13,613 bases of DNA from a virus (lineage: Duplodnaviria; Heunggongvirae; Uroviricota; Caudoviricetes), in IMG/VR virus record IMGVR_UViG_2778261693_000009. One strand, 5' to 3'. A program made the position numbers and the translations under genes. Under the pieces are notes generated by a model, which worked only from the letters and a program-made list of their open reading frames with translations, did no database searches and was not told the DNA's origin. Positions 1,108-13,613 of this stretch are shown here, piece after piece (position 1 is the stretch's first letter; each line of letters starts with the position of its first letter).

Positions 1108-1187
1108 TTCATTACATAACCACTTAAAAAACAGTAAGTTATCACCGAATCGGCCTGATTTTCATTTCAGTTAATTTCATGACATTA
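1108..1187 (+). promoter_or_regulatory. int upstream region carrying two sequence boxes that recur upstream of alpA (candidate shared regulator or Int arm-type sites)
   Basis: Box 1 TTCATTACATAAC at 1108..1120 is identical to 3528..3540. Box 2 TAATTTCATGACATTA at 1172..1187 is identical to 3549..3564 (19 of 20 matches when the preceding cag is included). Confidence 0.4.
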
Positions 1188-1266
1188 CAACCTCGTGATG
1201 GTATAAGTGATGGTATTCCCCAGTTCGATATGCAGATACCATCAATTTACCAAAATGAGTACAGAT

Positions 1267-2571: not shown

Positions 2572-3453
2572 ATGCAGCATTCAAAAGAGAATGAAACTAT
2601 ATTCTTAGGAAATCTATGGATTGACAAAAAAATACCACCATTAGAATATTGTTCATTTGAACGCGCTTCAAGACTATTAGAATGCGAGATTGATGATTTA
2701 TTACACCTATACGAAATAGGCGCTTTTAATATCGCATTCAAGGCGGATGGACTTGCAGTTAGATTTAATGTTAATTTCCTCTATAAAAATCAGAAAATGG
2801 AAATTGACTTAATTCATCCCGTATTAACTAATCAATCACTAGAGATGGAATTTTCAACAATATGGTATGACCTTAAAGATGACTCCTTTGAACATTTTGA
2901 AAATGGGCTTCAAATTATAGGATTTGCCTGTGGTATTTGGTACGCCGATGATATGATAAGTGACATAAAAAATGGATTAGCTATAGATCCAGATTATGAA
3001 TTCAGGCTTAAACCGGTAAAAATACGAGATAATGTTTTGATGGCAACGGCCTCATATGAAGGAAATAAGGTCATTGATATTCCATTTGAAGATCTTCTTA
3101 TCATGCGAAGAGATTTAGAGTTAATATGGAAATCAGTAAAAACTGGAATTCCTATGCCAAGTTTACTTACGAAAAGAATTTCATCTGAACCTAAAATCCC
3201 CAAGCGATTAAATAACACTGCTGAGCATCATGCAAAAAATAGGGAGGGGTTATTAAATGCAGCCATATATATATTAGCAAAATACCCAAGCGAATGTCGT
3301 GGTGAAAGAAAAGAGATAAGTCCTGAAAAGTGGACTAACGCCATAATTAAACATTTAGGAGAGCTACCTCCAATATTTATCACTAATGAACAAGAAATCT
3401 TAAGAAAATTACGATTAGCGGTTAATCATGCGGGATTAAAACAAAAGGGGTAG
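2572..3453 (+). CDS. Hypothetical protein, 293 aa; AT-rich orphan cargo gene directly downstream of int
   Basis: Clean ORF with SD AGAGG 5 nt upstream of the ATG, 30 bp after the int stop. Markedly AT-rich by eye (roughly low-30s percent GC versus over 50 percent in the flanking core genes). No motif I recognise (no P-loop, no obvious nuclease or HTH signature, no hydrophobic segments). Confidence 0.7.
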   Translation: MQHSKENETIFLGNLWIDKKIPPLEYCSFERASRLLECEIDDLLHLYEIGAFNIAFKADGLAVRFNVNFLYKNQKMEIDLIHPVLTNQSLEMEFSTIWYDLKDDSFEHFENGLQIIGFACGIWYADDMISDIKNGLAIDPDYEFRLKPVKIRDNVLMATASYEGNKVIDIPFEDLLIMRRDLELIWKSVKTGIPMPSLLTKRISSEPKIPKRLNNTAEHHAKNREGLLNAAIYILAKYPSECRGERKEISPEKWTNAIIKHLGELPPIFITNEQEILRKLRLAVNHAGLKQKG

Positions 3454-3519
3454 ACTGAAACAATCTACAGGTAGAGTTGATTACACTACCTTCACAGCAT
3501 TTTGATATCCCCATAGTAT

Positions 3520-3547
3520 CTGCCGTGTTCATTACATAACACGGCAG
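3520..3547 (+). promoter_or_regulatory. Perfect 10-bp inverted repeat (CTGCCGTGTT / AACACGGCAG) with an 8-nt spacer, just upstream of alpA
   Basis: Left arm 3520..3529, right arm 3538..3547. The repeat encloses box 1 (TTCATTACATAAC) and its right arm overlaps the weak SD region of alpA (ATG at 3556). No T-run follows, so it is more likely an operator or translational-control hairpin than a terminator. Confidence 0.4.
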
Positions 3548-3555
3548 GTAATTTC

Positions 3556-3771
3556 ATGACATTAAAAACTTATCCTATCACTGGACATGCCCGCCCACGA
3601 GCTACTGCTGACTTTTTGCAAATAAGTACGGTTACTCTCTGGCGCTGGGAAAAGAACAATCCTGAATTTCCCAAATCTATACGCATTTCAAAACGGGTAT
3701 CTGTTTACGATGCACAAGAAATTAGGCAGTGGGTTAAAGCTCAATCAGCAGGATTGGAGGAAGTAGTGTAA
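3556..3771 (+). CDS. alpA: AlpA-family (prophage CP4-57 regulator-like) small DNA-binding regulator/excisionase-type protein
   Basis: 71-aa protein containing FLQISTVTLWRWEKNNPEFPKSIRISKRVSVYDAQEIRQWV, which fits the AlpA/Xis-type winged-helix pattern. Located between int and the replication module as in P4-like elements. Confidence 0.75.
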   Translation: MTLKTYPITGHARPRATADFLQISTVTLWRWEKNNPEFPKSIRISKRVSVYDAQEIRQWVKAQSAGLEEVV

Positions 3772-3790
3772 TGACAATATTAACAAAGCT

Positions 3791-3810
3791 GGGGAGAAAA
3801 AAGCCTCCCC
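3791..3810. terminator. Candidate bidirectional hairpin between convergent alpA and the RHH gene
   Basis: GGGGAG (3791..3796) / CTCCCC (3805..3810) 6-bp stem with an A-rich loop; on the minus strand the loop reads as a T-run. Weak as a terminator. Confidence 0.25.
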
Positions 3811-3820
3811 AACGTATTAA

Positions 3821-4015
3821 TCAATTCTTTGGTTCTAAACCTCGGCTTTGTAACTCTTTGCGTAGAATGCGCTTGATCCAAGCCGCTAGCGATTCATCGC
3901 CATCCTGCTGTTGTGCTTGTTCCATCAGTTCACGCAGTTCAGGGTCAAGTCGGAACTGGAATGGCGGATTCCCACGTCTTTCATTTTTGTGTGTTGACAC
4001 GTCAATTACACCCAT
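3821..4015 (-). CDS. Ribbon-helix-helix (Arc/MetJ-like) small DNA-binding protein, candidate repressor
   Basis: 64-aa protein; FQFRLDPELRELMEQAQQ...SLAAWIKRILRKEL fits a beta-strand then two helices (RHH fold). Transcribed divergently from the replication operon. Weak or absent SD. Confidence 0.55.
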   Translation of the reverse strand: MGVIDVSTHKNERRGNPPFQFRLDPELRELMEQAQQQDGDESLAAWIKRILRKELQSRGLEPKN

Positions 4016-4021
4016 TGTAAT
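3994..4021 (+). promoter_or_regulatory. Candidate sigma70 promoter for the rightward early/replication operon
   Basis: TTGACA at 3994..3999, 16-nt spacer, TGTAAT at 4016..4021. Overlaps the start of the divergent RHH gene and the TGTAATG/CATTACA repeats. Confidence 0.45.
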
Positions 4022-4049
4022 GTATTTATGTGTAATGACACATTACACA
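4003..4049. promoter_or_regulatory. Operator-like cluster of TGTAATG / CATTACA half-sites
   Basis: TGTAATG at 4016..4022 and 4031..4037, inverted CATTACA at 4041..4047, and related AATTACA at 4004..4010; all overlap the candidate promoter between the RHH gene and the rightward operon. Confidence 0.4.
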
Positions 4050-4131
4050 CAGAAAAACAAAATAGCAACGCCCCGGAGTGTTTGCAGCACCACCGAGGCG
4101 TCTGACCAGCACGTTATATGAGGTAACGAAG

Positions 4132-4308
4132 ATGGCTAAACAGAAGTGTACCTGGTTATTTGCGGCGATCAACCGCAGTCAACGTAATGCCCGTCCGGTG
4201 ATGTTAAGGATCACCGCAGATAACGAGCGATCAGCGCGGCGCAGACTTGCCCCGGACTATGTACTGAGCTTTGCCGGGCGCATTCCCTGCGGAGGTGAAC
4301 ATGCGTAA
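4132..4308 (+). CDS. Small protein resembling the Icd-like (host cell division inhibitor) family of P4-like elements; assignment from memory
   Basis: ATG at 4132 preceded by GAGG at 4121..4124. 58-aa product MAKQKCTWLFAAINRSQRNARPVMLRITADNERSARRRLAPDYVLSFAGRIP. Its 3' end overlaps the next ORF by 8 nt. Confidence 0.45.
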   Translation: MAKQKCTWLFAAINRSQRNARPVMLRITADNERSARRRLAPDYVLSFAGRIPCGGEHA

Positions 4309-4660
4309 TTATCCGCATCCCGGCGAACGCTGGCAGCATGAACGTGGCTGGACGGTCACGATTATCCGATTAATAGAAGCCTCGCCCTCTGTGGCGCTGG
4401 TTAATCCTGAATTCAGCTGTGAAGTGCTGATACGTCATGACAGCGACAACCAGCTTTCTTCCTGCCCTCTGGCATGGTTTGAACAGCGATATACGCGCCT
4501 GTTTGATGTACCGCTCTTTAAGCCTGCACCAGCTCCTGCAGGCGGTAGTGGTTCCGGCCCGCTGACACTGCATCCGTCTGTGCTATTTATCCGCTGGCGG
4601 GAGCGTAGCATATGGCGTTCTGCTGAGCCTGATGACGGTCACTATTCAAAGTTTCTCTGA
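4301..4660 (+). CDS. Hypothetical protein (119 aa), satellite early operon
   Basis: ATG at 4301 with SD GGAGG at 4291..4295; overlaps the upstream gene. GC-normal; no recognised motif. Confidence 0.55.
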   Translation: MRNYPHPGERWQHERGWTVTIIRLIEASPSVALVNPEFSCEVLIRHDSDNQLSSCPLAWFEQRYTRLFDVPLFKPAPAPAGGSGSGPLTLHPSVLFIRWRERSIWRSAEPDDGHYSKFL

Positions 4661-4691
4661 CAAAACACCGCTGAAAACGGAGTAATCCACA

Positions 4692-4976
4692 ATGAATATT
4701 TCAAACGGGCACAACGGTGCTCAGGGCCAGACTTTGCCTGAAAAACACAATACCGGTGCTTTTGCCTATGGGTTGTCAGAGGACGGTTTCGGAAAGCTGA
4801 CCCGCGCAAGAAATGCCTGCGACATGCTCCAGCTTCTCTTTTCTGAATACCCGTCTCAGGCCGGAGCACTGGACGCAGGCTGTGCGCCTGGTGTCGCCGC
4901 GCTGATGGAGTACCTGCGGGCAGATTTGACGGATATTGCACACAGCTGCGCACTGATTGAAGGAGGTGCCAGATGA
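4692..4976 (+). CDS. Hypothetical protein (94 aa), satellite early operon
   Basis: ATG at 4692 with SD-like ACGGAG upstream; its stop overlaps the next start (ATGA). Identity unknown. Confidence 0.5.
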   Translation: MNISNGHNGAQGQTLPEKHNTGAFAYGLSEDGFGKLTRARNACDMLQLLFSEYPSQAGALDAGCAPGVAALMEYLRADLTDIAHSCALIEGGAR

Positions 4977-5356
4977 ACCAGCCGCAGGTTTCCATTTTCC
5001 CGGCAGAAATGACCACCGCGCTTTACCGGCGGGCTATTGCTTCAGCATGGCGGCAGAAAATGCTGAACGAAACTGGCAATGATCAGTATGGTCCGCACAG
5101 CCTGACGGTGGAGCGTATTGAAATGGCCATTGCGCTGCATATCGAGTGCGCACTGATTAACGAGTACGGCGAAGCACAGGGCGCCGCTGCCGCGCTGGCA
5201 CTGCTGACTGACATGCTGGAGCCGTCACTGCTGACCGCGCCGCCGGTACTGACCGCGCGCGGTTGTGAAGTAATGGCGGAGATGTACCGCACGCTTCCGG
5301 CGGCCTTTGATGTCTGCTGCAGTACCGGTGTGACGTTGTATCAGGGGGAAGTATGA
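4973..5356 (+). CDS. Hypothetical protein (127 aa), translationally coupled to the primase gene
   Basis: ATG at 4973 with SD GGAGG; its stop overlaps the primase start (ATGA at 5353..5356). Confidence 0.5.
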   Translation: MNQPQVSIFPAEMTTALYRRAIASAWRQKMLNETGNDQYGPHSLTVERIEMAIALHIECALINEYGEAQGAAAALALLTDMLEPSLLTAPPVLTARGCEVMAEMYRTLPAAFDVCCSTGVTLYQGEV

Positions 5357-8025
5357 CAATACAGACGGTTACGCAGATTTCAGCCGCCGCGCGGGGGAAA
5401 TGGCCCGTTATTCTGCAGATGCTGCGTATTGATGTACCTGAAAACGGCAGGCACGGTCCCTGCCCGAAATGTGGGGGCAAGGATCGTTTTCGCCTTGATG
5501 ACCTTGACGGGCGCGGGACGTGGATCTGCAGCCAGTGTGGCAATGGTGACGGTCTGGATCTGGTTAAGCTCGTAACCGGTTACAGCGTCAGAAAGGCTGC
5601 GCAGGAGGTGGCGCAGGTGCTTAATGTGCCGGATGTGCAGGAACTGCCTGTTAAGCCTGCCAGACAAAAAGCCCCTAAACGCGACATGGGTCTTACCGTG
5701 GCGGCGCTGATGAAAGAGAGCCACACGGGAGAAAGCGCCTATCTGACAGGAAAAGGGTTCGCCGGATACCCGGCCTCTCTGACCGGAAGCGTGCAGCATA
5801 TCAGCGGTAAGGATTTTCCTGCCGGTTCCCTGCTGTTACCACTCACGACCAACACCGGAGCCGTGACCGGTGCACAGCTTATCGCCCCGACGGGTGAAAA
5901 AAGCATACTGCCCGGCAGCACGATGAAAGGCGCGTTTGTGTCGCTCAGCCCGTTACCGTCTGAACCACCGGTACAGGTGGTGATTACCGAAGGTTACGCT
6001 ACGGCGCTGACGGTAAGCCAGCTCACTGCCGGATGCGTAGTGGCTGCCATATCTGCGGGCAACCTGCCCAATGTGGCGCAGTCGCTGCGGGCACGCTGGC
6101 CTGAGGTAAAAATTATCATCGCCGGTGATAACGATTTTCAGGATGGGGGGGAGAATCCCGGCAGAGCCTTTGCTGAACGGGCGGCAAAAGTTGTTGGCGG
6201 CTGGATGACGCTGCCACCAGGAGAGATTAAGGCTGACTGGAATGACTTTCATCGGGAGCACGGTATTACCCGTGCCCGTGAAGCCTTTCGCAACGGTCTG
6301 GTACTGTGCGGGGAAGGCCGCACGCAACTGCCGCACGGGTTCCGTCTTACCCAGGAATATCTCTGGTATGAAAAGCAGGTACAGCGCAACGGTGAGACGG
6401 AGATCCAGAACGTCAAAATATGCAGCCCGCTGCGCGTGACGGCAATCACCTGCGATGCCGATGGCGGTAACTTCGGACGACTGCTGGAATGGGAAGATAC
6501 GTGGGGTGAGCGTCGCCGCTGGGCGATGCCGATGGAAATGCTGAGCGGCAGTGGTGAGGAACTGCGCCGGGTACTGCTGGTTAACGGGCTGTCTTATATC
6601 AGCACTACCGGTGAGGCACGCGCACGCCTGATGGAATATATCTCACTGTGTAAACCGGAACGCCGCGTGACCTGCGTCAGCCGTACTGGCTGGCATGGTC
6701 AGGTTTACGTCCTGCAGGATGAGGTCAGCGGTGAAGGTGCAGAGGGTGTCATTCTCCAGACCACTTCCGTGCAGGGGCGTGATTTCCGCGTGTCGGGCAC
6801 AACAGAGGAATGGCGGGAGAACGTATCCCGCTACTGTACCGGCAACTCTCGCGTGGCATTTGCTGTCAGCCTGGCCTTTGCTGCACCACTGTTACGGCTG
6901 GTTGGTATGGACGGCGGCGGCTACCACCTCAAAGGGGAATCGACAGACGGTAAGACCACCACCATGAAAGCGGCAACCTCCGTCTGCGGCGGGCCTGACT
7001 ACTGGCAGACATGGCGGGCCACCGGCAACGCGCTGGAGGGATGCGCCAGCCGCCGCAACGATGCCGCCATGATGCTTGATGAGATCCGGGAAGTTGACGG
7101 ACGCGAGGCAGGCAATATCGCCTACATGCTGGCAAACGGTCAGGGCAAGGGCCGTGCCGGTACGGACGGTGAGCTGCGTACCCGTAAGCAGTGGCGCCTG
7201 TTGTTCTTTTCAACTGGCGAGTTGTCTCTGACCGAACATGCGGCAAAGGCCGGTGAGCGTACTTTTGCCGGGATGGAAGTCAGGATGATCCAGATCCCCA
7301 GCGATTCCGGGAAATTTGGCGTTTTTGAGGAGCTGCACGGCTTCGACAGCGGCAAGGCTCTGGCAGAGCATCTTGAATGGGCCACGTCCTGCTACTACGG
7401 TTCGCCGTTCCGGGAGTGGCTAAAAGCACTGACCGCTGATCTTAACGGACTAACGGCACAGGCAAAATCGCTGATGAAGGAATATGCTGCCGCCCTGACT
7501 CCGAAAGATGCAGGCAACCAGGTGGGCCGGGCTGTGAATCGCTTTGCACTGGTGGCGATGGCGGGTGAACTGGCAACCCGTCTGGGTATCACCGGCTGGC
7601 CTGAGGGTGAAGCACTGCGGGCAACCCGCGTCTGCCTGAACGCATGGCTGAAAGATCGCGGGCACACCGCCAATCAGGAAGATATTGCCGCACTGGAGCA
7701 GGTTCGCAGTTTCTTTACCGCGAATCAGTACAGCCGCTTTGCAGACTGGTATGACGAGCGCAACCGCCCCGGCAATATGGTGGGCTGGCGCAGGGTGGAG
7801 AAAGGCAGTACCGCGCAGGGCACGGAAGCTGTCACTACGTTCTATGTCATGCCGTCCGGCTGGAAAGAAATCTGCAGGGGATTTGACCCGCGCAAGGTGG
7901 CGCGTCTGTGCGCAGATCGTGGATACCTGCTGCCCTCCACTGATGGCAAACTCCAGACAACCATTCGCCCGCCAGAGATGAATCCCCGCAGGCTCTATGT
8001 CTTCAACAGCGAGGTGCCGGGTTAA
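5353..8025 (+). CDS. P4 alpha-like bifunctional DNA primase-helicase (zinc ribbon, TOPRIM, D5/SF3-type P-loop NTPase)
   Basis: 890-aa ORF with SD GGGGGAAG. Zinc ribbon C37-P-K-C40 ... C59-S-Q-C62. TOPRIM-like ITEGY (nt about 5984..6001) and AGDNDF (nt about 6121..6138). Walker A GESTDGKT (nt about 6934..6960) and Walker B MMLDEI (nt about 7066..7083). Confidence 0.9.
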   Translation: MTIQTVTQISAAARGKWPVILQMLRIDVPENGRHGPCPKCGGKDRFRLDDLDGRGTWICSQCGNGDGLDLVKLVTGYSVRKAAQEVAQVLNVPDVQELPVKPARQKAPKRDMGLTVAALMKESHTGESAYLTGKGFAGYPASLTGSVQHISGKDFPAGSLLLPLTTNTGAVTGAQLIAPTGEKSILPGSTMKGAFVSLSPLPSEPPVQVVITEGYATALTVSQLTAGCVVAAISAGNLPNVAQSLRARWPEVKIIIAGDNDFQDGGENPGRAFAERAAKVVGGWMTLPPGEIKADWNDFHREHGITRAREAFRNGLVLCGEGRTQLPHGFRLTQEYLWYEKQVQRNGETEIQNVKICSPLRVTAITCDADGGNFGRLLEWEDTWGERRRWAMPMEMLSGSGEELRRVLLVNGLSYISTTGEARARLMEYISLCKPERRVTCVSRTGWHGQVYVLQDEVSGEGAEGVILQTTSVQGRDFRVSGTTEEWRENVSRYCTGNSRVAFAVSLAFAAPLLRLVGMDGGGYHLKGESTDGKTTTMKAATSVCGGPDYWQTWRATGNALEGCASRRNDAAMMLDEIREVDGREAGNIAYMLANGQGKGRAGTDGELRTRKQWRLLFFSTGELSLTEHAAKAGERTFAGMEVRMIQIPSDSGKFGVFEELHGFDSGKALAEHLEWATSCYYGSPFREWLKALTADLNGLTAQAKSLMKEYAAALTPKDAGNQVGRAVNRFALVAMAGELATRLGITGWPEGEALRATRVCLNAWLKDRGHTANQEDIAALEQVRSFFTANQYSRFADWYDERNRPGNMVGWRRVEKGSTAQGTEAVTTFYVMPSGWKEICRGFDPRKVARLCADRGYLLPSTDGKLQTTIRPPEMNPRRLYVFNSEVPG

Positions 8026-9169: not shown

Positions 9170-9717
9170 CGGCCCGAGGCACGCCTGACCAGGCACTTAC
9201 CAGTTTTCGGAATGCCCGTATTCTGTGGGCCGGACATAGTGAGAGCCGAAAAGCCGTTGAACAACAGATAGCATCTCTCCTCGCTGCCACAGAAAAACCA
9301 GCAGATTATGCCCGACAGCTCGAATTACTGCGGGAACGTCTGGATGTGCTGAAATGGCAAATTAACTGTGCTGCGCGCGAATGCATTTACTCGCAGCATT
9401 TACTGATGGAAGCCTGCACAGAAGCCGCTCTCAGCAATTTTATGCAGGCGAATGGGGCAGCCCTGACATCTGCACTGGCTCCGTTCCTGAAGGGGCGCGG
9501 GGGGGTTGACGTTGCGTCCCGTATATTACGCAGTGCTCTGGTTCGCCAGCTGACAATAACACCGCCTGAAATTGCCGGGGATTATCGTGAGATCCTGGAT
9601 GAATCCGGTTTGATGCCTGACCCCGGGATGATTCGTGATTGCCAGGGCTCTTACACCCCGGCACAACATCTGCGTTTTCAGCAACGCCTGAATGACATTA
9701 ACGATATACAGGAGTGA
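9166..9717 (+). CDS. Psu-like protein (polarity suppression / capsid decoration family); from size and remembered motifs
   Basis: 183 aa (P4 Psu is about 190 aa). Start overlaps the upstream stop (ATGA). Contains KWQINCAARECIY and FMQANGAALTSALAP, which resemble my recollection of P4 Psu. Shares the local motif FMQxxGxAL with the upstream 247-aa protein. Confidence 0.45.
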   Translation: MTARGTPDQALTSFRNARILWAGHSESRKAVEQQIASLLAATEKPADYARQLELLRERLDVLKWQINCAARECIYSQHLLMEACTEAALSNFMQANGAALTSALAPFLKGRGGVDVASRILRSALVRQLTITPPEIAGDYREILDESGLMPDPGMIRDCQGSYTPAQHLRFQQRLNDINDIQE

Positions 9718-9792
9718 TATTAATGGCACTTAAATGTCCGGAATGCGGTACAGTTGCACACGCCAGAACAGCAGCCTATGAAGCTCCGTCAG

Positions 9793-9796
9793 TTAA
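9793..9796. repeat. IS5 target-site duplication, left copy (TTAA)
   Basis: TTAA immediately precedes the left IS5 inverted repeat. Confidence 0.8.
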
Positions 9797-10991
<1,195 letters not shown>

Positions 10992-11621: not shown

Positions 11622-13613
11622 ATGGCCATTCAAAAAAAACAAACAAAAAATTCTGAAAGAAGTATTAAAAGCCAGTTAGAAAAACTTACGGCTGAAAAAG
11701 CCATTTCCGAATATATTTGGAATGCTTTTGATGCTGAAGCCACAAATATTAATATTACAGTTATCCCAAATGGTTTAAGTGGGATATCTTCAATAGAAAT
11801 TATTGATGATGGAACTGGCATCGATTTTAATGAAGTCGATGAAACTTTCGGGCAGTTTTTAGATTCCAAGAAGAAAGCAAAACGAACGCCTGTCACAAGA
11901 GGACATAAAGGTAAGGGGCGGTTTTCATTCTGTAAATTCGCTGATAAAGCCGAATGGACTAGCTGGCGTAATGGAGAGAAATTTACGCTAACTATAGTTT
12001 CATCACATCTAAATGAATATGAGCATTCAGATTTATCCATGTGCTCTCATAAAAATTCTGGAACTAAGGTGGTCTTTAATCCTGTAACAATTACTGAAGA
12101 TTATTTTAATTCAATAGTTATACCCTATTTGCAGAACGATATATCTTGGCTGTTGGTGGCCAAACCAAAATTAAAATTAAAAATAAACGGTCAATCTATT
12201 AGCCCAATAGGATATGCTTCAACTTCAAATAATATTGAATTTGGAGAGGTCGATTTTAATTCAAAAACAGTTATATGGTCTAGTAAACCTGTAGTAGAAA
12301 AATCATATATATATTATTTAAATAATCAAGGTGATATTGTTTACAAAGAGTTTTCTGAGATGAACAAAAAAGGATTTGATTGTTCATCCTATGTCACATC
12401 AAGTTGGTTTGATGATTTTTCTGAATCAAACGACTTGTTTAATGAATCGAAAAACAGTGTTGACTCAGATATTTTTAAATACATTAGCCTACATGTTAAA
12501 GGTAATTTAAGGGAAGAGTATAGAAAATATAAAAATAATGCAGCAGATCAACTCATTCAAAACTATTTAAATGAGGGTGTGTTTCCAGAATATAAAGGTG
12601 AGAATAGAATGCTCAATGAATTTAAAAGGAATCAACTCATTGAAACTATAAAGATAATTTATGAGGCCGAACCTCAAATTTTCTCCACACTAAACAAGAA
12701 ACAAAAAAAAATCTTAATTAAACTATTAGATAGAATTGTTGAAACCAATAATTTATCCAGTCTCTTTGACATTTTTGAAGGTATAGTTTCCCTATCCGAA
12801 GATGAGGTTGATAAACTTTCATCTGTAATAAAAAGAAGTTCACTTTCTAATATTACGAGGACTTTGTCATTTATTAATGATAGACTGGATGTTATTGATT
12901 ATTTTAAAAAAATACTATATGAGAAAAAGAAAGAATCATATGAAGTAAAGCACATTCAAAAGAGCATAGAAAATAATTTATGGCTTTTTGGAGAGCAATA
13001 CACTCTAGTTGCATCAGAAGATGATAAGTTTGATAAAGCTCTTAGAAAGTATCTGGAGAAGACTAAAGGTTTTAACGAAGCACATTATAATAAGTATAGT
13101 GTACAGCATCCAGATAAAAATAAAGAAATGGATATATTTGCAGCACAAAAAATAAAGCGTTACACTGAAAATAATGAAGAATATTTTCATTGCATTGTGA
13201 TTGAATTAAAGAAACCAAGTATAAAACTCGGTGATGAAGAACTCGCACAAATAAAGTTATATAAAAATATAATATCTGCGACTGATGAATTTAAAGACGA
13301 TAATACAAAATGGGATTTTATTTTAGTGGGAAATGATATATCTAATAGCAATATCACTGCTGCAAATTTATCATCAGATCTAGAAACGAATAAAATACAT
13401 GGTGAGTTTGGCTTGGTTCAAAAAACAACAAATATGAAAATTTACGTCAAAACGTGGAAGCAAATTTTAAATGAGTATGATCTTAGATATAACGACCTGA
13501 TCGATAAGCTTAAGTTGAAAGAGTTAGAAATTGCAGAAGATATGGGGCCTGATGAACTCACGGCAAAAATTTTAGAAAAAACGGCAAGACTTCCGACTTC
13601 GATACAGGCTTAG
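11622..13613 (+). CDS. GHKL-family (Bergerat-fold) ATPase with a C-terminal PD-(D/E)xK-like putative nuclease region; AT-rich cargo gene and candidate anti-phage factor
   Basis: 663-aa complete ORF whose stop codon is the last three bases of the window. Weak SD GGGA 5 nt upstream. N-terminal motifs: E30-x3-N34-x2-D37-A38 (EYIWNAFDA), D62-D-G64-T-G66 (G1 box), G94-x2-G97-x-G99-R-F (G2-like). C-terminal motifs: D504 (EMDIF) ... E528-L-K530 (IVIELKK) ... Q543. Very AT-rich by eye (about 30 percent GC), unlike the satellite core. Confidence 0.75.
   Translation: MAIQKKQTKNSERSIKSQLEKLTAEKAISEYIWNAFDAEATNINITVIPNGLSGISSIEIIDDGTGIDFNEVDETFGQFLDSKKKAKRTPVTRGHKGKGRFSFCKFADKAEWTSWRNGEKFTLTIVSSHLNEYEHSDLSMCSHKNSGTKVVFNPVTITEDYFNSIVIPYLQNDISWLLVAKPKLKLKINGQSISPIGYASTSNNIEFGEVDFNSKTVIWSSKPVVEKSYIYYLNNQGDIVYKEFSEMNKKGFDCSSYVTSSWFDDFSESNDLFNESKNSVDSDIFKYISLHVKGNLREEYRKYKNNAADQLIQNYLNEGVFPEYKGENRMLNEFKRNQLIETIKIIYEAEPQIFSTLNKKQKKILIKLLDRIVETNNLSSLFDIFEGIVSLSEDEVDKLSSVIKRSSLSNITRTLSFINDRLDVIDYFKKILYEKKKESYEVKHIQKSIENNLWLFGEQYTLVASEDDKFDKALRKYLEKTKGFNEAHYNKYSVQHPDKNKEMDIFAAQKIKRYTENNEEYFHCIVIELKKPSIKLGDEELAQIKLYKNIISATDEFKDDNTKWDFILVGNDISNSNITAANLSSDLETNKIHGEFGLVQKTTNMKIYVKTWKQILNEYDLRYNDLIDKLKLKELEIAEDMGPDELTAKILEKTARLPTSIQA

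What the first reader, a model, noticed from the sequence alone, without database searches (positions are those of the whole stretch)
3994..4049. Divergent control region with a near-consensus promoter and TGTAATG/CATTACA repeats
Seen directly: TTGACA-16 nt-TGTAAT overlaps three to four copies of a 7-bp motif in direct and inverted orientation, located between the divergent RHH gene and the replication operon. This is the expected layout for an immunity switch where the RHH protein represses the early operon. In P4 the equivalent region also encodes an immunity RNA, so the roughly 100-nt leader (4030..4131) could have an RNA role.
Basis: partly seen in the sequence, partly recalled or inferred. 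Interest (0 to 1): 0.4.

Follow-up and report, generated by a model that had tools for sequence, protein, structure and literature searches.

The report
Satellite immunity switch: repressor, operators, antisense RNA
The repeats and promoter are real and form the operator-promoter core of a swappable on/off cassette that many enterobacterial phage satellites place in front of their replication genes, and the leader beside it most likely encodes an undescribed small antisense RNA on the opposite strand rather than a P4-type immunity RNA.

Summary
**Setting.** The window is a P4-like satellite prophage at tRNA-Arg in E. coli.

**Observation: confirmed.** TTGACA (3994-3999), a 16-nt spacer and TGTAAT (4016-4021) are present. 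Three exact TGTAATG/CATTACA copies sit within 32 bp, with a fourth GTAAT-core site at 4005-4011.

**Interpretation: partly supported.**
- The divergent 59-aa gene (3821-4000, GTG start) has a ribbon-helix-helix-like model.
- Its control region is nearly invariant in 59 variants, while the neighbouring AlpA proteins are only 19-25% identical.
- Other cassettes have a different small protein and a different repeat set at the same place, around the same TTGAC -35. They include two in front of an identical Icd-like gene.
- I read this as a repressor-operator immunity module. No binding or repression was tested.

**What was not supported.**
- The -10 register is ambiguous. TGTAAT lacks the key A; TAATGT at an 18-nt spacing is equally conserved.
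- There is no P4 CI/C4 RNA in the leader.

**New lead.** The conserved leader hairpin (4068-4101) is a minus-strand structure.
- It is more stable on the minus strand in 70 of 75 variants and about equal in the other five.
- It carries 123 G·U pairs on the minus strand against 7 on the plus strand, plus compensatory changes, and is followed by a U-rich tract.
- Together with a positionally conserved TAnnnT box inside the Icd-like gene, it predicts an ~85-nt cis-antisense RNA covering that gene's ribosome-binding site.

All function is inferred from sequence.

The parts
3821..4000 (-). Small RHH-type regulator gene, 59 aa, GTG start. It is annotated as 64 aa from ATG 4015 in the identical RefSeq locus.
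   Evidence: PHROG Arc-like repressor, E 9e-6. NCBIfam YlcI/YnfO, E 3e-4, below the curated cut-off. AF2 model: two helices (20-33, 38-52) after an extended N-terminus, pLDDT 78.7. Foldseek top hits are almost all RHH proteins, but their E-values are not significant. 106 homologues, named 'hypothetical' or 'phage protein' where a source names them; three carry a JGI HicB-family label. The strand residues PPFQFRLD are invariant or nearly so. The upstream ATG is not conserved.
3788..3813 (-). Intrinsic terminator just after the RHH stop codon.
   Evidence: Terminator scan: 10-bp stem with 6 GC pairs, followed by TTTGTTAATA.
3994..3999 (+). -35 hexamer TTGACA of the rightward (icd-like/replication operon) promoter. 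It is also codons 2-3 of the RHH gene on the other strand.
   Evidence: GACA (3996-3999) is invariant and the two T's 97-98% conserved in 59 variants. TTGAC is kept in cassettes with other operators. In type C the tool calls TTGACA-17-TATGAT, 11/12, at the equivalent place.
4016..4023 (+). -10 region. Two registers fit: TGTAAT (4016-4021, 16-nt spacer) or TAATGT (4018-4023, 18-nt spacer).
   Evidence: TGTAAT gives 11/12 but lacks the A at position 2, so the tool skips it. Four variants have TATAAT. A4019 and T4023 are invariant. Related cassettes have TAnnnT at 17-18 nt.
4005..4011 (-). Operator half-site 1 (ATTACAC), lying in the promoter spacer.
   Evidence: Exact inverted copy of 4030-4036. 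4007-4011 are 98-100% conserved.
4016..4022 (+). Operator half-site 2 (TGTAATG), overlapping the -10.
4029..4049 (.). Palindromic operator TGTGTAATG-aca-CATTACACA (half-sites 3 and 4), positioned at about +1 to +21 of the predicted rightward transcript.
   Evidence: Perfect 9-bp arms. 4036-4046 are 86-100% conserved, and 4040-4045 invariant. The left-arm positions 4034/4035 vary, so perfect symmetry is not conserved.
4028..4131 (+). Predicted 5' leader of the icd-like mRNA.
   Evidence: Inferred from the promoter position. No TSS data are available. It folds at -32.3 kcal/mol, z -3.8.
4068..4101 (-). GC-rich hairpin, read as the terminator stem-loop of a leftward transcript.
   Evidence: The minus-strand fold is more stable in 40/40 type-A variants. 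Among 35 other variants it is more stable in 30 and about equal in 5. 13 pairs, 9 of them with compensatory changes. The mosaic joints to other cassettes fall at 4092 and 4105.
4052..4067 (-). U-rich tract after the hairpin (UGCUAUUUUGUUUUUC).
   Evidence: Read from the sequence. TTT is invariant in alignment A3. The mean is 5.4 T in the 10-nt tail in other cassettes, and it is weak in the YlcI/YnfO types. The terminator scan flags the site in L075 and L016.
4105..4136 (-). Stem-loop I of the predicted antisense RNA. The outer stem is GCCA/UGGU, the inner stem is CGUUA/UAACG, and the loop carries CCUC (anti-Shine-Dalgarno).
   Evidence: RNAalifold consensus. Cells paired: 98.6% and 94.4% in the two helices. 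The outer G·U pair is an A·C mismatch on the + strand in 33 of 36 sequences. The single-sequence fold agrees.
4145..4172 (-). Candidate antisense promoter: TTGATC (4172-4167), 16 nt, TACACT (4150-4145).
   Evidence: In A3 the T is at least 90% conserved and the A and final T are invariant. TAnnnT sits at CDS offset +13 in 9 N-terminal families, and at +7 in 4 families with a longer leader, although the amino acids differ. The -35 is weak and variable. No 9/12 promoter is conserved.
4052..4138 (-). Predicted cis-antisense small RNA of about 85 nt, covering the start codon and ribosome-binding site of the icd-like gene.
   Evidence: Sum of the three parts above. It folds at -27.4 kcal/mol, z -2.5. 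It is not in Rfam 15. Expression was not tested.
4132..4308 (+). Icd-like gene, a homologue of the ORF at the kil/eta position of P4. It is the first gene of the operon ending in the primase (5353-8025).
   Evidence: NCBIfam phage_ICD_like, E 5.5e-24. 48% identity to the ORF downstream of the P4 CI RNA region.
4040..4068 (-). Candidate promoter for the RHH gene: TTGCTA (4068-4063), 17 nt, TAATGT (4045-4040). An alternative is GTGTCA (4041-4036), 16 nt, TACAAT (4019-4014).
   Evidence: The first was found by eye. Its TTG (96.6-100%) and TAATGT are conserved, but the -10 matches only 3/6. The second was listed by the tool, but its final T exists only in the window's subgroup. Unresolved.

Best explanation
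Window 3994-4049 is the operator-promoter core of an immunity cassette used by enterobacterial phage satellites.

**Promoter.** A rightward sigma-70 promoter drives the icd-like...primase (replication) operon. Its -35 is TTGACA at 3994-3999, its -10 lies within 4016-4023, and its start is near 4028-4031.

**Operators.** Four GTAAT-core sites cover the promoter from the spacer to about +21: 4005-4011, 4016-4022, 4031-4037 and 4041-4047. I infer they are operators for the divergently encoded 59-aa ribbon-helix-helix protein (3821-4000).

**Protein layer.** Bound protein would exclude RNA polymerase and keep the replication operon silent in the prophage. Because the -35 lies inside the regulator's own first codons, any promoter for the regulator must overlap this one. 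The two genes therefore compete for the same DNA.

**RNA layer.** A second layer is predicted on the opposite strand. A weak promoter inside the first codons of the icd-like gene would make an ~85-nt antisense RNA. Its first stem-loop shows an anti-Shine-Dalgarno sequence in the loop. Its second stem-loop is the 4068-4101 hairpin, followed by a U tract. This RNA would block translation of the icd-like gene or destabilise its message.

**Shown versus inferred.** Shown: the sequence features, their conservation, covariation and strand bias. Inferred: protein binding, repression, both transcription starts, and the existence of the RNA.
For: **(1) The features are real and clustered**.

**(2) Conservation contrast.** Across 59 distinct type-A control regions, most of 3994-4051 is at least 85-100% conserved. 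That includes 3994-4002, 4004-4011, 4018-4023, 4029-4033 and 4036-4046. The adjacent 4052-4059 is close to random.

**(3) The cassette is portable.**
- The same protein and control region sit in P4-like satellites, PICI-like satellites (some next to capsid genes) and at least 100 plasmids.
- The AlpA proteins beside them are only 19-25% identical, and the plasmid copy has no alpA annotated beside it.

**(4) Specificity swaps.**
- Satellites with the identical Icd-like protein carry a different small protein and different repeats. One has GGTGCGATTCA x3, another ACATGGTAATTACC x2.
- An IMG/VR scan shows roughly a dozen or more such types. Each has its own repeats around a conserved TTGAC.
- The two proteins with similar strands, PPFQFRL and PPFQMRL, share a GTAAT core. 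Proteins with dissimilar strands have unrelated repeats.

**(5) RHH fold.** The PHROG Arc-like hit, the AF2 model and the structural neighbours (Arc, CopG, NikR, VapB, ParD) all agree.

**(6) The promoter position is corroborated.** Type C has TTGACA-17-TATGAT, 11/12. Four type-A variants have TATAAT.

**(7) Antisense RNA.**
- The minus-strand fold is more stable in 40/40 variants of one set and 30/35 of another, and the plus strand is never more stable.
- On one alignment 95.3% of cells pair on the minus strand against 79.9% on the plus strand, with 123 G·U pairs against 7.
- 11 pairs carry compensatory changes, and 0 of 500 shuffles reach the observed values.
- A U-rich tail follows, and the terminator scan flags it in two homologues.
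- A -10-like TAnnnT is fixed relative to the structure in 13 families whose N-terminal amino acids differ.
Against: - There is no experimental datum of any kind: no binding, no reporter, no 5' or 3' ends.
- The 16-nt register gives a -10 without the essential A. The 18-nt register matches only 3/6.
- The left arm of the palindrome varies (4034, 4035), so perfect symmetry is not selected.
- Half-site spacings (12, 15 and 10 bp between cores) and orientations are irregular, and I could not fit them to a known RHH binding geometry.
- GTAAT/TAATGT also resembles a -10 element, so some copies may be promoter elements and not operators.
- The RHH fold rests on non-significant Foldseek E-values and one PHROG hit. 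Pfam and the PDB sequence search are negative.
- No promoter for the RHH gene is convincingly placed.
- The antisense promoter has a weak, variable -35, and no site of 9/12 or better is conserved.
- The U tract is poor in the YlcI/YnfO-type cassettes.
- The sequences compared are related mobile elements, so some conservation is shared ancestry.
Confidence: 0.6

Rival explanations
1. The leftward transcript is not a free small RNA but the long leader of the RHH mRNA. On this reading the promoter inside the icd-like gene is the regulator's promoter, and the 4068-4101 hairpin is an attenuator whose read-through sets the RHH level.
For: No convincing RHH promoter lies between 4000 and 4068. The U tract is weak or absent in the YlcI/YnfO-type cassettes, which suggests read-through there. 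The RHH start is a GTG with a poor Shine-Dalgarno sequence.
Against: Most type-A and related cassettes have a reasonable U tract immediately after a stem of -19 to -27 kcal/mol. Type B has room for its own back-to-back promoter and has a good Shine-Dalgarno sequence.
Confidence: 0.2
2. The hairpin and the conserved leader act in the sense mRNA. They could stabilise the 5' UTR, bind a protein, or form an SD-presenting stem-loop. No antisense RNA is made.
For: The plus-strand leader also folds well (-32.3 kcal/mol, z -3.8). Watson-Crick pairs are symmetric between strands. There is a weak Rfam resemblance to the traJ 5' UTR (22.7 bits, E 0.33). No strong conserved antisense promoter was found.
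Against: Every departure from Watson-Crick pairing favours the minus strand: 123 G·U against 7, with A·C or C·A mismatches on the plus strand. The hairpin is followed by U's only on the minus strand. On the plus strand it is followed by CUGACCAG.
Confidence: 0.12
3. The heptamer repeats are not protein operators. They are overlapping -10-like elements of two face-to-face promoters, with TAATGT on both strands and symmetric about 4031.5. Regulation would then work by polymerase competition alone, or through AlpA.
For: TAATGT occurs at 4018-4023 (+) and 4045-4040 (-). Each lies 17-18 nt from a conserved TTG-containing hexamer (by eye). GTAAT resembles part of a -10.
Against: The other cassette types have repeats with no resemblance to promoter elements at the same position, and these change with the small protein. 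The repeats stay constant while AlpA diverges to 19-25% identity and is absent beside the plasmid copy.
Confidence: 0.08
4. One reading: the ~100-nt leader encodes a P4-type immunity RNA (CI/C4-like) on the sense strand.
For: The gene order matches the P4 left operon, and the Icd-like gene is a homologue of the ORF at the P4 kil/eta position. A related cassette (L002) does carry isrK and C4 RNAs.
Against: No C4 or isrK hit appears in the window at E up to 1, or in 3750-4400 at E up to 10. The same search finds both in L002 at 61.8 and 75.4 bits. The P4 leader is about 320 nt, against about 100 nt here. The strand bias points to the other strand.
Confidence: 0.03

Closest known systems
Phage P22 immunity I region (mnt, arc, sar, ant)
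   Same: Small ribbon-helix-helix repressors act on operators that overlap divergent, overlapping promoters. A short antisense RNA covers the ribosome-binding site of a downstream gene. The P22 description comes from PMC2629481. Arc is among the structural neighbours of the model.
   Different: There is one divergent RHH gene here, not mnt plus arc. The regulated genes are an Icd-like gene and a replication operon, not an antirepressor. There is no detectable sequence homology to Arc, Mnt or sar. The antisense RNA here is only predicted.
Satellite phage P4 immunity (PLE, seqA-CI RNA-seqC, kil/eta, alpha operon)
   Same: The gene order and position in the element are the same: Vis/AlpA, then a promoter, a leader, an Icd-like ORF (at the P4 kil/eta position), DUF5375 and the alpha primase. 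Control of the replication operon has an RNA component acting in the leader.
   Different: P4 uses a processed sense-strand CI RNA that pairs with seqA and seqC and causes premature termination (PMC4825925). This window has no CI/C4 or isrK/seqA element. Instead it has a divergent protein regulator, which the P4 record does not annotate at that place.
Phage P1/P7 immI (c4 RNA-icd-ant) and Salmonella isrK-STnc1160
   Same: An Icd-family gene comes first in an operon whose translation start is the target of a small RNA. The related cassette L002 carries isrK and C4 between the same conserved leader and the Icd-like gene.
   Different: C4 and IsrK are sense-strand RNAs that act in trans. The RNA predicted here is cis-encoded on the opposite strand. 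My account of the P1 mechanism is from my own knowledge and was not checked here.
FinP/traJ and other two-stem-loop antisense RNAs of plasmids
   Same: The predicted RNA is about 80-90 nt with two stem-loops, and its loop is complementary to the target's ribosome-binding site. There is a weak Rfam match of the sense leader to the traJ 5' UTR.
   Different: The match is 22.7 bits against a gathering score of 50, so it is a resemblance and not membership. The genetic context is unrelated.
Master repressors of Gram-positive PICIs (Stl/Rpr) versus the AlpA activator of Gram-negative PICIs
   Same: A regulator gene is transcribed divergently from the excision/replication operon. [quoted passage not shown] This cassette occupies the expected place in PICI-like elements.
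   Different: Stl and Rpr are large helix-turn-helix proteins inactivated by helper proteins. Here the protein has 59 aa, and how it would be inactivated is unknown.

Membership tests
Ribbon-helix-helix (Arc/MetJ-type) DNA-binding proteins | A strand-helix-helix fold of about 45 residues. | tested here: inconclusive
   AF2 model: extended residues 11-19, then helices 20-33 and 38-52, with pLDDT at or above 90 from residue 20. Foldseek neighbours are NikR, Arc, VapB, CopG, ParD and CopA_SO at rmsd 0.6-1.0 A over 33-39 residues, but every E-value is at or above 1.5.
Ribbon-helix-helix (Arc/MetJ-type) DNA-binding proteins | Sequence-profile membership. | tested here: inconclusive
   PHROG phrog_228 'Arc-like repressor', E 8.9e-6. 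No Pfam family. No PDB sequence match.
Ribbon-helix-helix (Arc/MetJ-type) DNA-binding proteins | Dimerisation that forms a two-stranded sheet inserted in the major groove of repeated sites. | not testable with these tools
   Only a monomer was modelled. The repeated sites exist, but binding was not tested.
YlcI/YnfO family (NF041551) | Score above the curated cut-off of 30 bits. | tested here: not met
   20.7 bits, E 3.2e-4. RefSeq gives this name to the RHH-position proteins of L002b and L088, not to the type-A protein in most records. One RefSeq hit to the window's stretch does carry the name (H4).
Sigma-70 promoter | A -35 and a -10 hexamer 16-18 nt apart, with A at position 2 and T at position 6 of the -10. 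| tested here: inconclusive
   The -35 is perfect. With the 16-nt spacer the -10 is TGTAAT (5/6, G at position 2), so the tool does not list it. With the 18-nt spacer the -10 is TAATGT (3/6, but A and T are in place and invariant). Homologues have TATAAT or TATGAT.
C4 antisense RNA / P4 CI RNA (RF01695) and isrK/seqA (RF01394) | A match to the covariance model. | tested here: not met
   No hit in the window at E up to 1, or in 3750-4400 at E up to 10. As a positive control, L002 scores 75.4 and 61.8 bits.
traJ 5' UTR (RF00243) | A score at or above the gathering score of 50 bits. | tested here: not met
   22.7 bits, E 0.33, at 4028-4119 on the + strand.
Intrinsic (Rho-independent) terminator, minus strand | A GC-rich stem-loop directly followed by a U-rich tract. 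| tested here: met
   The stem is about -19 to -21 kcal/mol on the minus strand. The tail is UGCUAUUUUGUUUUUC. The window copy has a bulge, so the scan misses it, but the scan flags the site in L075 and L016. The tail is weak in some other cassette types.
Intrinsic (Rho-independent) terminator, minus strand | The structure is selected on that strand. | tested here: met
   The minus-strand fold is more stable in 70 of 75 variants and the plus strand in none. G·U pairs: 123 against 7. 9 of the 13 stem pairs show compensatory change.
Cis-encoded antisense small RNA (sar/FinP/CopA kind) | Its own promoter on the strand opposite the target. | tested here: inconclusive
   The -10-like T-A-n-n-n-T has an invariant A and final T. 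It is positionally fixed in 13 N-terminal families. The -35 is weak (TTGATC, TTGTGT, TGTAAA), and no site of 9/12 or better is conserved.
Cis-encoded antisense small RNA (sar/FinP/CopA kind) | A stable transcript of defined length is detected. | not testable with these tools
   No transcript data are available here. No paper describing such an RNA was found.
P4-like satellite | Core genes: int, alpA/vis, alpha primase, sid, psu and delta. | tested here: met
   Present: integrase, AlpA, a Zn-ribbon + TOPRIM + DUF927 primase, DUF5375 and Psu. The Sid-position ORF matches a Psu-like PHROG, as the P4 sid gene does. The ogr/Delta-like ORF is truncated next to an IS.

The most novel reading that the evidence does not exclude
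The small RHH protein, its private operators and the conserved antisense RNA together form the missing master immunity switch of Gram-negative phage satellites: P4-like elements without CI RNA, and PICI-like elements. The switch would be bistable, built from overlapping opposed promoters plus an RNA brake on a toxic Icd/Kil-type first gene. It would exist in a dozen or more interchangeable specificities that recombine at the conserved terminator hairpin.
Probability: 0.35. Interest if true: 0.72.

Novelty: new variant of a known kind. Interest (0 to 1): 0.58.

Why it matters
**The open question it touches.** How Gram-negative satellites stay silent is not settled. P4 uses an RNA. For PICIs, the main experimental paper says a global repressor is unclear and that AlpA is an activator (PMC6092414).

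**What this cassette would explain.** It is widespread, mostly annotated 'hypothetical', and swappable. A repressor-operator cassette in exactly the expected position, shared by P4-like and PICI-like satellites and by plasmids carrying BREX genes, would give:
- a candidate for that repressor;
- a reason why satellites with the same replication genes can coexist, namely different immunity specificities;
- a small RNA family that is not in Rfam.

**Practical value.** The cassettes would be a set of compact orthogonal repressor/operator pairs.

**How it can be tested.** Gel shifts, reporter fusions and strand-specific RNA mapping would all test the model directly.

Tried and rejected
**RNA family searches**
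- Rfam on the whole window and on 3750-4400 gave only the tRNA and sub-threshold noise, including traJ_5 at 22.7 bits.
- I considered an RNase P minihelix with a 3' ACCA, a boxB/boxA-like antitermination site and a rut site for the hairpin plus CUGACCA. I dropped all three once the strand bias showed the structure belongs to the minus strand.

**Protein searches**
- Pfam on the RHH and Icd-like proteins found nothing.
- The PDB sequence search with the RHH protein gave only chance hits.

**Similarity searches**
- A blastn search of the phage collection found only 3 short leader matches, and P4 itself was not among them.

**Promoter scans**
- A scan for a conserved antisense promoter of 9/12 or better within 400 nt found none shared by all loci.
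- A second plus-strand promoter, ATGACA(4035)-17-CAAAAT, is listed by the tool, but its -10 is not conserved. I rejected it.
- The other TGTAATG copies (1110, 1183, 3530) belong to a different repeat pair shared by the int and alpA upstream regions. I did not count them as operators.

**Calls that failed**
I replaced it with a DNA-pattern scan of IMG/VR. About a third of those hits were unrelated sequences and were filtered out.
- My first hairpin scripts failed on a regex or file error.
- In one search the pair-type count was circular, because the structure had been taken from the minus-strand fold. I replaced it with independent folds of each strand.

**Literature**
- No paper on an RHH regulator or antisense RNA in these satellites was found.
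Full report
**What the window is**

- The window is a P4-like satellite prophage next to tRNA-Arg(CCU) at 1009-1080.
- The stretch compared, window 3500-4700, is 100% identical to the E. coli 504211 chromosome.
- The genes, in order, are:
  - integrase, with annotated ORF 1207-2541;
  - an unknown 293-aa ORF;
  - AlpA/Vis-like, 3556-3771;
  - a small divergent gene on the minus strand;
  - an Icd-like gene, 4132-4308;
  - two unknown ORFs;
  - DUF5375;
  - a Zn-ribbon/TOPRIM/DUF927 primase, 5353-8025;
  - a Sid-position ORF;
  - Psu;
  - a truncated ogr/Delta-like ORF.
- The Icd-like protein is 48% identical to the ORF that follows the CI RNA region in P4, the kil/eta position.
- The finding therefore sits where P4 has its PLE promoter and immunity leader.

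**Checking the observation**

  - TTGACA at 3994-3999;
  - a 16-nt spacer;
  - TGTAAT at 4016-4021;
  - TGTAATG at 4016 and 4031;
  - its complement at 4041-4047.
- There is a fourth site, ATTACAC at 4005-4011.
- 4029-4049 is a perfect palindrome with 9-bp arms.
- Three heptamers within 40 bp never arose in 1000 Markov resamples.
- The 11/12 promoter match is unique in the window. A match that good turns up somewhere in about a fifth of resamples, so its weight comes from its position and conservation, not its score.
- Two details need correcting:
  - TGTAAT carries G at the position where the -10 needs A, which is why the scanning tool ignores it.
  - The divergent gene most likely starts at GTG 4000, not ATG 4015. 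The upstream ATG exists in at most 7 of 59 variants, and most homologues have 59 aa.
- TTGACA is therefore the reverse complement of codons 2-3 of that gene.

**The small protein**

- It has no Pfam family and no PDB sequence relative.
- It matches a PHROG 'Arc-like repressor' family at E 9e-6.
- It matches the YlcI/YnfO model below its cut-off.
- The database search returned 106 proteins, with source names spanning many genera of Enterobacterales. Nearly all are named 'hypothetical' or 'phage protein'.
- An AlphaFold model gives an extended N-terminal segment followed by two confident helices.
- Its structural neighbours are almost all ribbon-helix-helix proteins: NikR, Arc, VapB, CopG, ParD. 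Their E-values are not significant for so short a chain.
- The presumed DNA-reading strand, PPFQFRLD, is invariant or nearly so.
- I accept the RHH assignment as likely, not proven.

**Comparative evidence that the repeats are this protein's operators**

- 80 IMG/VR loci encoding 75-98% identical proteins gave 62 distinct control regions, of which 59 were in register for column counts.
- Most of 3994-4051 is at least 85-100% conserved in them. This includes the -35, the ATTACAC site, TAATGT at 4018-4023 and TGACACATTAC at 4036-4046. Positions 4052-4059 are close to random.
- The same cassette occurs in P4-like satellites and in PICI-like satellites, some next to capsid genes. It also occurs on at least 100 plasmids, where the one locus examined has it upstream of a WYL-BREX locus.
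- The AlpA proteins beside these cassettes share only 19-25% identity, and the plasmid copy has no alpA annotated beside it. The repeats follow the small protein, not AlpA.
- The reverse case also holds. Two satellites whose Icd-like protein is identical to the window's carry other small proteins with other repeats at the same place:
  - a YlcI/YnfO-family protein with three direct GGTGCGATTCA repeats;
  - a 57-aa protein (strand PPFQMRLT) with two ACATGGTAATTACC palindromes around TTGACA-17-TATGAT.
- A pattern scan of IMG/VR gave about 60 genuine loci with roughly a dozen or more such types. They fall into two protein families, each with private repeats around a conserved TTGAC.
- The two types with similar strands share a GTAAT core. 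Dissimilar strands go with unrelated repeats.
- In E. coli genomes the joints between cassette and operon fall at window 4092 and 4105.
- This mosaic pattern is what one expects of interchangeable phage immunity regions.

**The promoter**

- The -35 is perfect and conserved across cassette types.
- The -10 register is open.
  - Four type-A variants have TATAAT in the 16-nt register.
  - A4019 and T4023, the key bases of the 18-nt register TAATGT, are invariant.
  - Related cassettes mostly have TAnnnT at 17-18 nt.
- Either register puts the start near 4028-4031, so the palindrome covers about +1 to +21 and the other two sites cover the spacer and the -10.
- A promoter for the regulator must overlap this one, because the regulator's coding sequence begins at the -35.
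- I found two candidate promoters for the regulator, neither convincing.

**The leader**

- There is no CI/C4 or isrK element in the leader.
- The same search detects both in the related cassette L002. There they lie between the same conserved leader and the Icd-like gene, under a pseudo 'ash family' annotation.
- The leader does hold a conserved hairpin at 4068-4101, followed by CUGACCA, a short stem-loop around the Shine-Dalgarno sequence, and AUGGCU.
- The hairpin's mismatches on the plus strand are all C·A or A·C, which are G·U pairs on the minus strand.
- The strand bias is quantified as follows:
  - Folding each strand independently, the minus strand is more stable in all 40 distinct type-A variants, with means of -22.2 against -16.7 kcal/mol.
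  - It is also more stable in 30 of 35 distinct variants from other cassette types, and the plus strand never wins.
  - On a 36-sequence alignment the consensus structure pairs 95.3% of cells on the minus strand against 79.9% on the plus strand.
  - That alignment has 123 G·U pairs on the minus strand against 7 on the plus strand.
  - 11 pairs show compensatory change, and no shuffle reaches the observed values.
- On the minus strand the hairpin is followed by UGCUAUUUUGUUUUUC. The tract is U-rich in most cassettes but poor in the YlcI/YnfO types.
- The terminator scan calls the site in two homologues whose stems lack the bulge.
- Upstream on that strand, RNAalifold finds a second element:
  - GCCA (the complement of the start codon region) pairs with UGGU (the complement of ACCA);
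  - these enclose CGUUA/UAACG;
  - the loop carries CCUC, the complement of the Shine-Dalgarno sequence.
- This accounts for the otherwise odd conservation of ACCA and of AUGGCU.

**An antisense promoter?**

- No strong promoter is conserved.
- However, a T-A-n-n-n-T box lies at a fixed distance from these structures. Its A and last T are invariant in the alignment.
- It falls on codons 5-7 of the first gene in 9 N-terminal families, and 6 nt closer to the start codon in 4 families with a longer leader.
- The encoded residues differ (KC, QH, KS, EH, NH, NS, YD), but the three key bases persist, including a third-codon T.
- In the window it is TACACT (4150-4145), with TTGATC 16 nt upstream.
- The predicted product is an RNA of about 85 nt (about 4137 to 4052) that folds at -27.4 kcal/mol.
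- I give this RNA a little better than even odds.
- The main alternative is that the same transcript is the leader of the RHH mRNA, with the hairpin acting as an attenuator.

**How I think it works**

- In the prophage, the RHH protein occupies the four GTAAT sites and blocks the rightward promoter.
- Any escaping message is met by the antisense RNA at its ribosome-binding site. This keeps the Icd/Kil-type gene, and with it the replication operon, off.
- When the rightward promoter fires, it transcribes into the antisense promoter about 110 nt downstream and through the regulator's promoter region. That would favour a two-state behaviour.
- What lifts repression is unknown. Read-through from the AlpA gene is one possibility, because the hairpin between alpA and the RHH gene has a U tract only on the minus strand.
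- All of this is inference from sequence.

**Comparison with known systems**

- The closest functional analogue is the P22 immunity I region: two RHH repressors plus the sar antisense RNA controlling ant (PMC2629481).
- The closest positional analogue is P4 immunity, which uses the sense-strand CI RNA with seqA and seqC (PMC4825925). That defining element is tested and absent here.
- For Gram-negative PICIs, the experimental literature states that a global repressor is unclear and that AlpA activates (PMC6092414).
- A later genomic survey mentions C4/isrK immunity RNAs in some PICIs but no small divergent repressor and no antisense RNA (PMC10111431).
- I found no paper describing either.
- I therefore rate this as a new variant of a known kind. 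The parts are conventional, but the cassette, its many specificities and the predicted RNA appear undescribed.

**Limits**

- Nothing here is experimental.
- The compared sequences are related mobile elements, so conservation is partly shared descent. The contrast with adjacent variable columns and the independent cassette types reduce that concern but do not remove it.
- The half-site geometry does not map cleanly onto a known RHH-DNA complex.
- The -10 register, the RHH promoter and the antisense -35 are all unresolved.

Noticed in passing
window 9714-10959: An IS element sits directly after a truncated ogr/Delta-like ORF of 63 aa (9714-9905). The IS is a DDE transposase on the minus strand at 9943-10959 (PF01609, E 5e-35). 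The locus L001, identical over the stretch compared, has an intact 90-aa gene and no IS. The satellite's late-gene activator therefore looks disrupted in this strain.
   Followed up: partly
window 1108-1188 and 3528-3564: Two sequence blocks are shared between the tRNA/int upstream region and the alpA upstream region. They are TTCATTACATAAC (1108-1120 and 3528-3540) and TAATTTCATGACATTA (1173-1188 and 3549-3564). The second block includes the alpA start codon. They may be AlpA/Vis or integrase arm sites. They account for the extra TGTAATG hits outside the control region.
   Followed up: partly
window 11622-13613: A large ORF runs off the window end. It has an HATPase_c_3 domain, a weak HSDR_N-like region and a weak PADLOC 'Type II restriction enzyme' hit. 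It lies in the position of the P4 defence hotspot.
   Followed up: partly
window 2572-3453: A 293-aa ORF between int and alpA has no hit in Pfam, NCBIfam, PHROGs or PADLOC. In a related satellite (L004) the same slot holds a TIR-domain protein, so this may be unrecognised defence cargo.
   Followed up: no
L003 3973-4693 and plasmid hits H29-H58: The type-A RHH gene, its operators, the leader and a first ORF with an Icd-like N-terminus occur on about 100 Klebsiella, Escherichia and Salmonella plasmids. In the one locus examined (L003) the cassette lies immediately upstream of a WYL-domain gene and a BREX system, as if it drives or once drove that defence locus.
   Followed up: partly
L002 5056-5394: An 'ash family protein' pseudogene annotation overlies isrK (5185-5261) and C4 (5283-5370) RNA genes. 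Its first codons duplicate the start of the Icd-like gene, and it is preceded by the same leader hairpin.
   Followed up: partly
window 3994-4000 and related loci: In one RHH family the -35 hexamer and the regulator's start are the same bases. TTGACAT is the reverse complement of ATG-TCA-A, which would explain the conserved Met-Ser-Thr N-terminus of these proteins.
   Followed up: partly
window 4092 and 4105: In about 400 E. coli genomes, similarity to the window begins abruptly at 4092 or 4105. These positions lie inside the 3' arm of the hairpin or at ACCA. The conserved hairpin may therefore serve as the crossover point for swapping immunity cassettes.
   Followed up: partly
L006 340-407: The Klebsiella 'phage' record PQ569648 carries an int-alpA RNA (RF02996, 63.6 bits) and a cassette of another immunity type. 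The record may therefore include a satellite.
   Followed up: no
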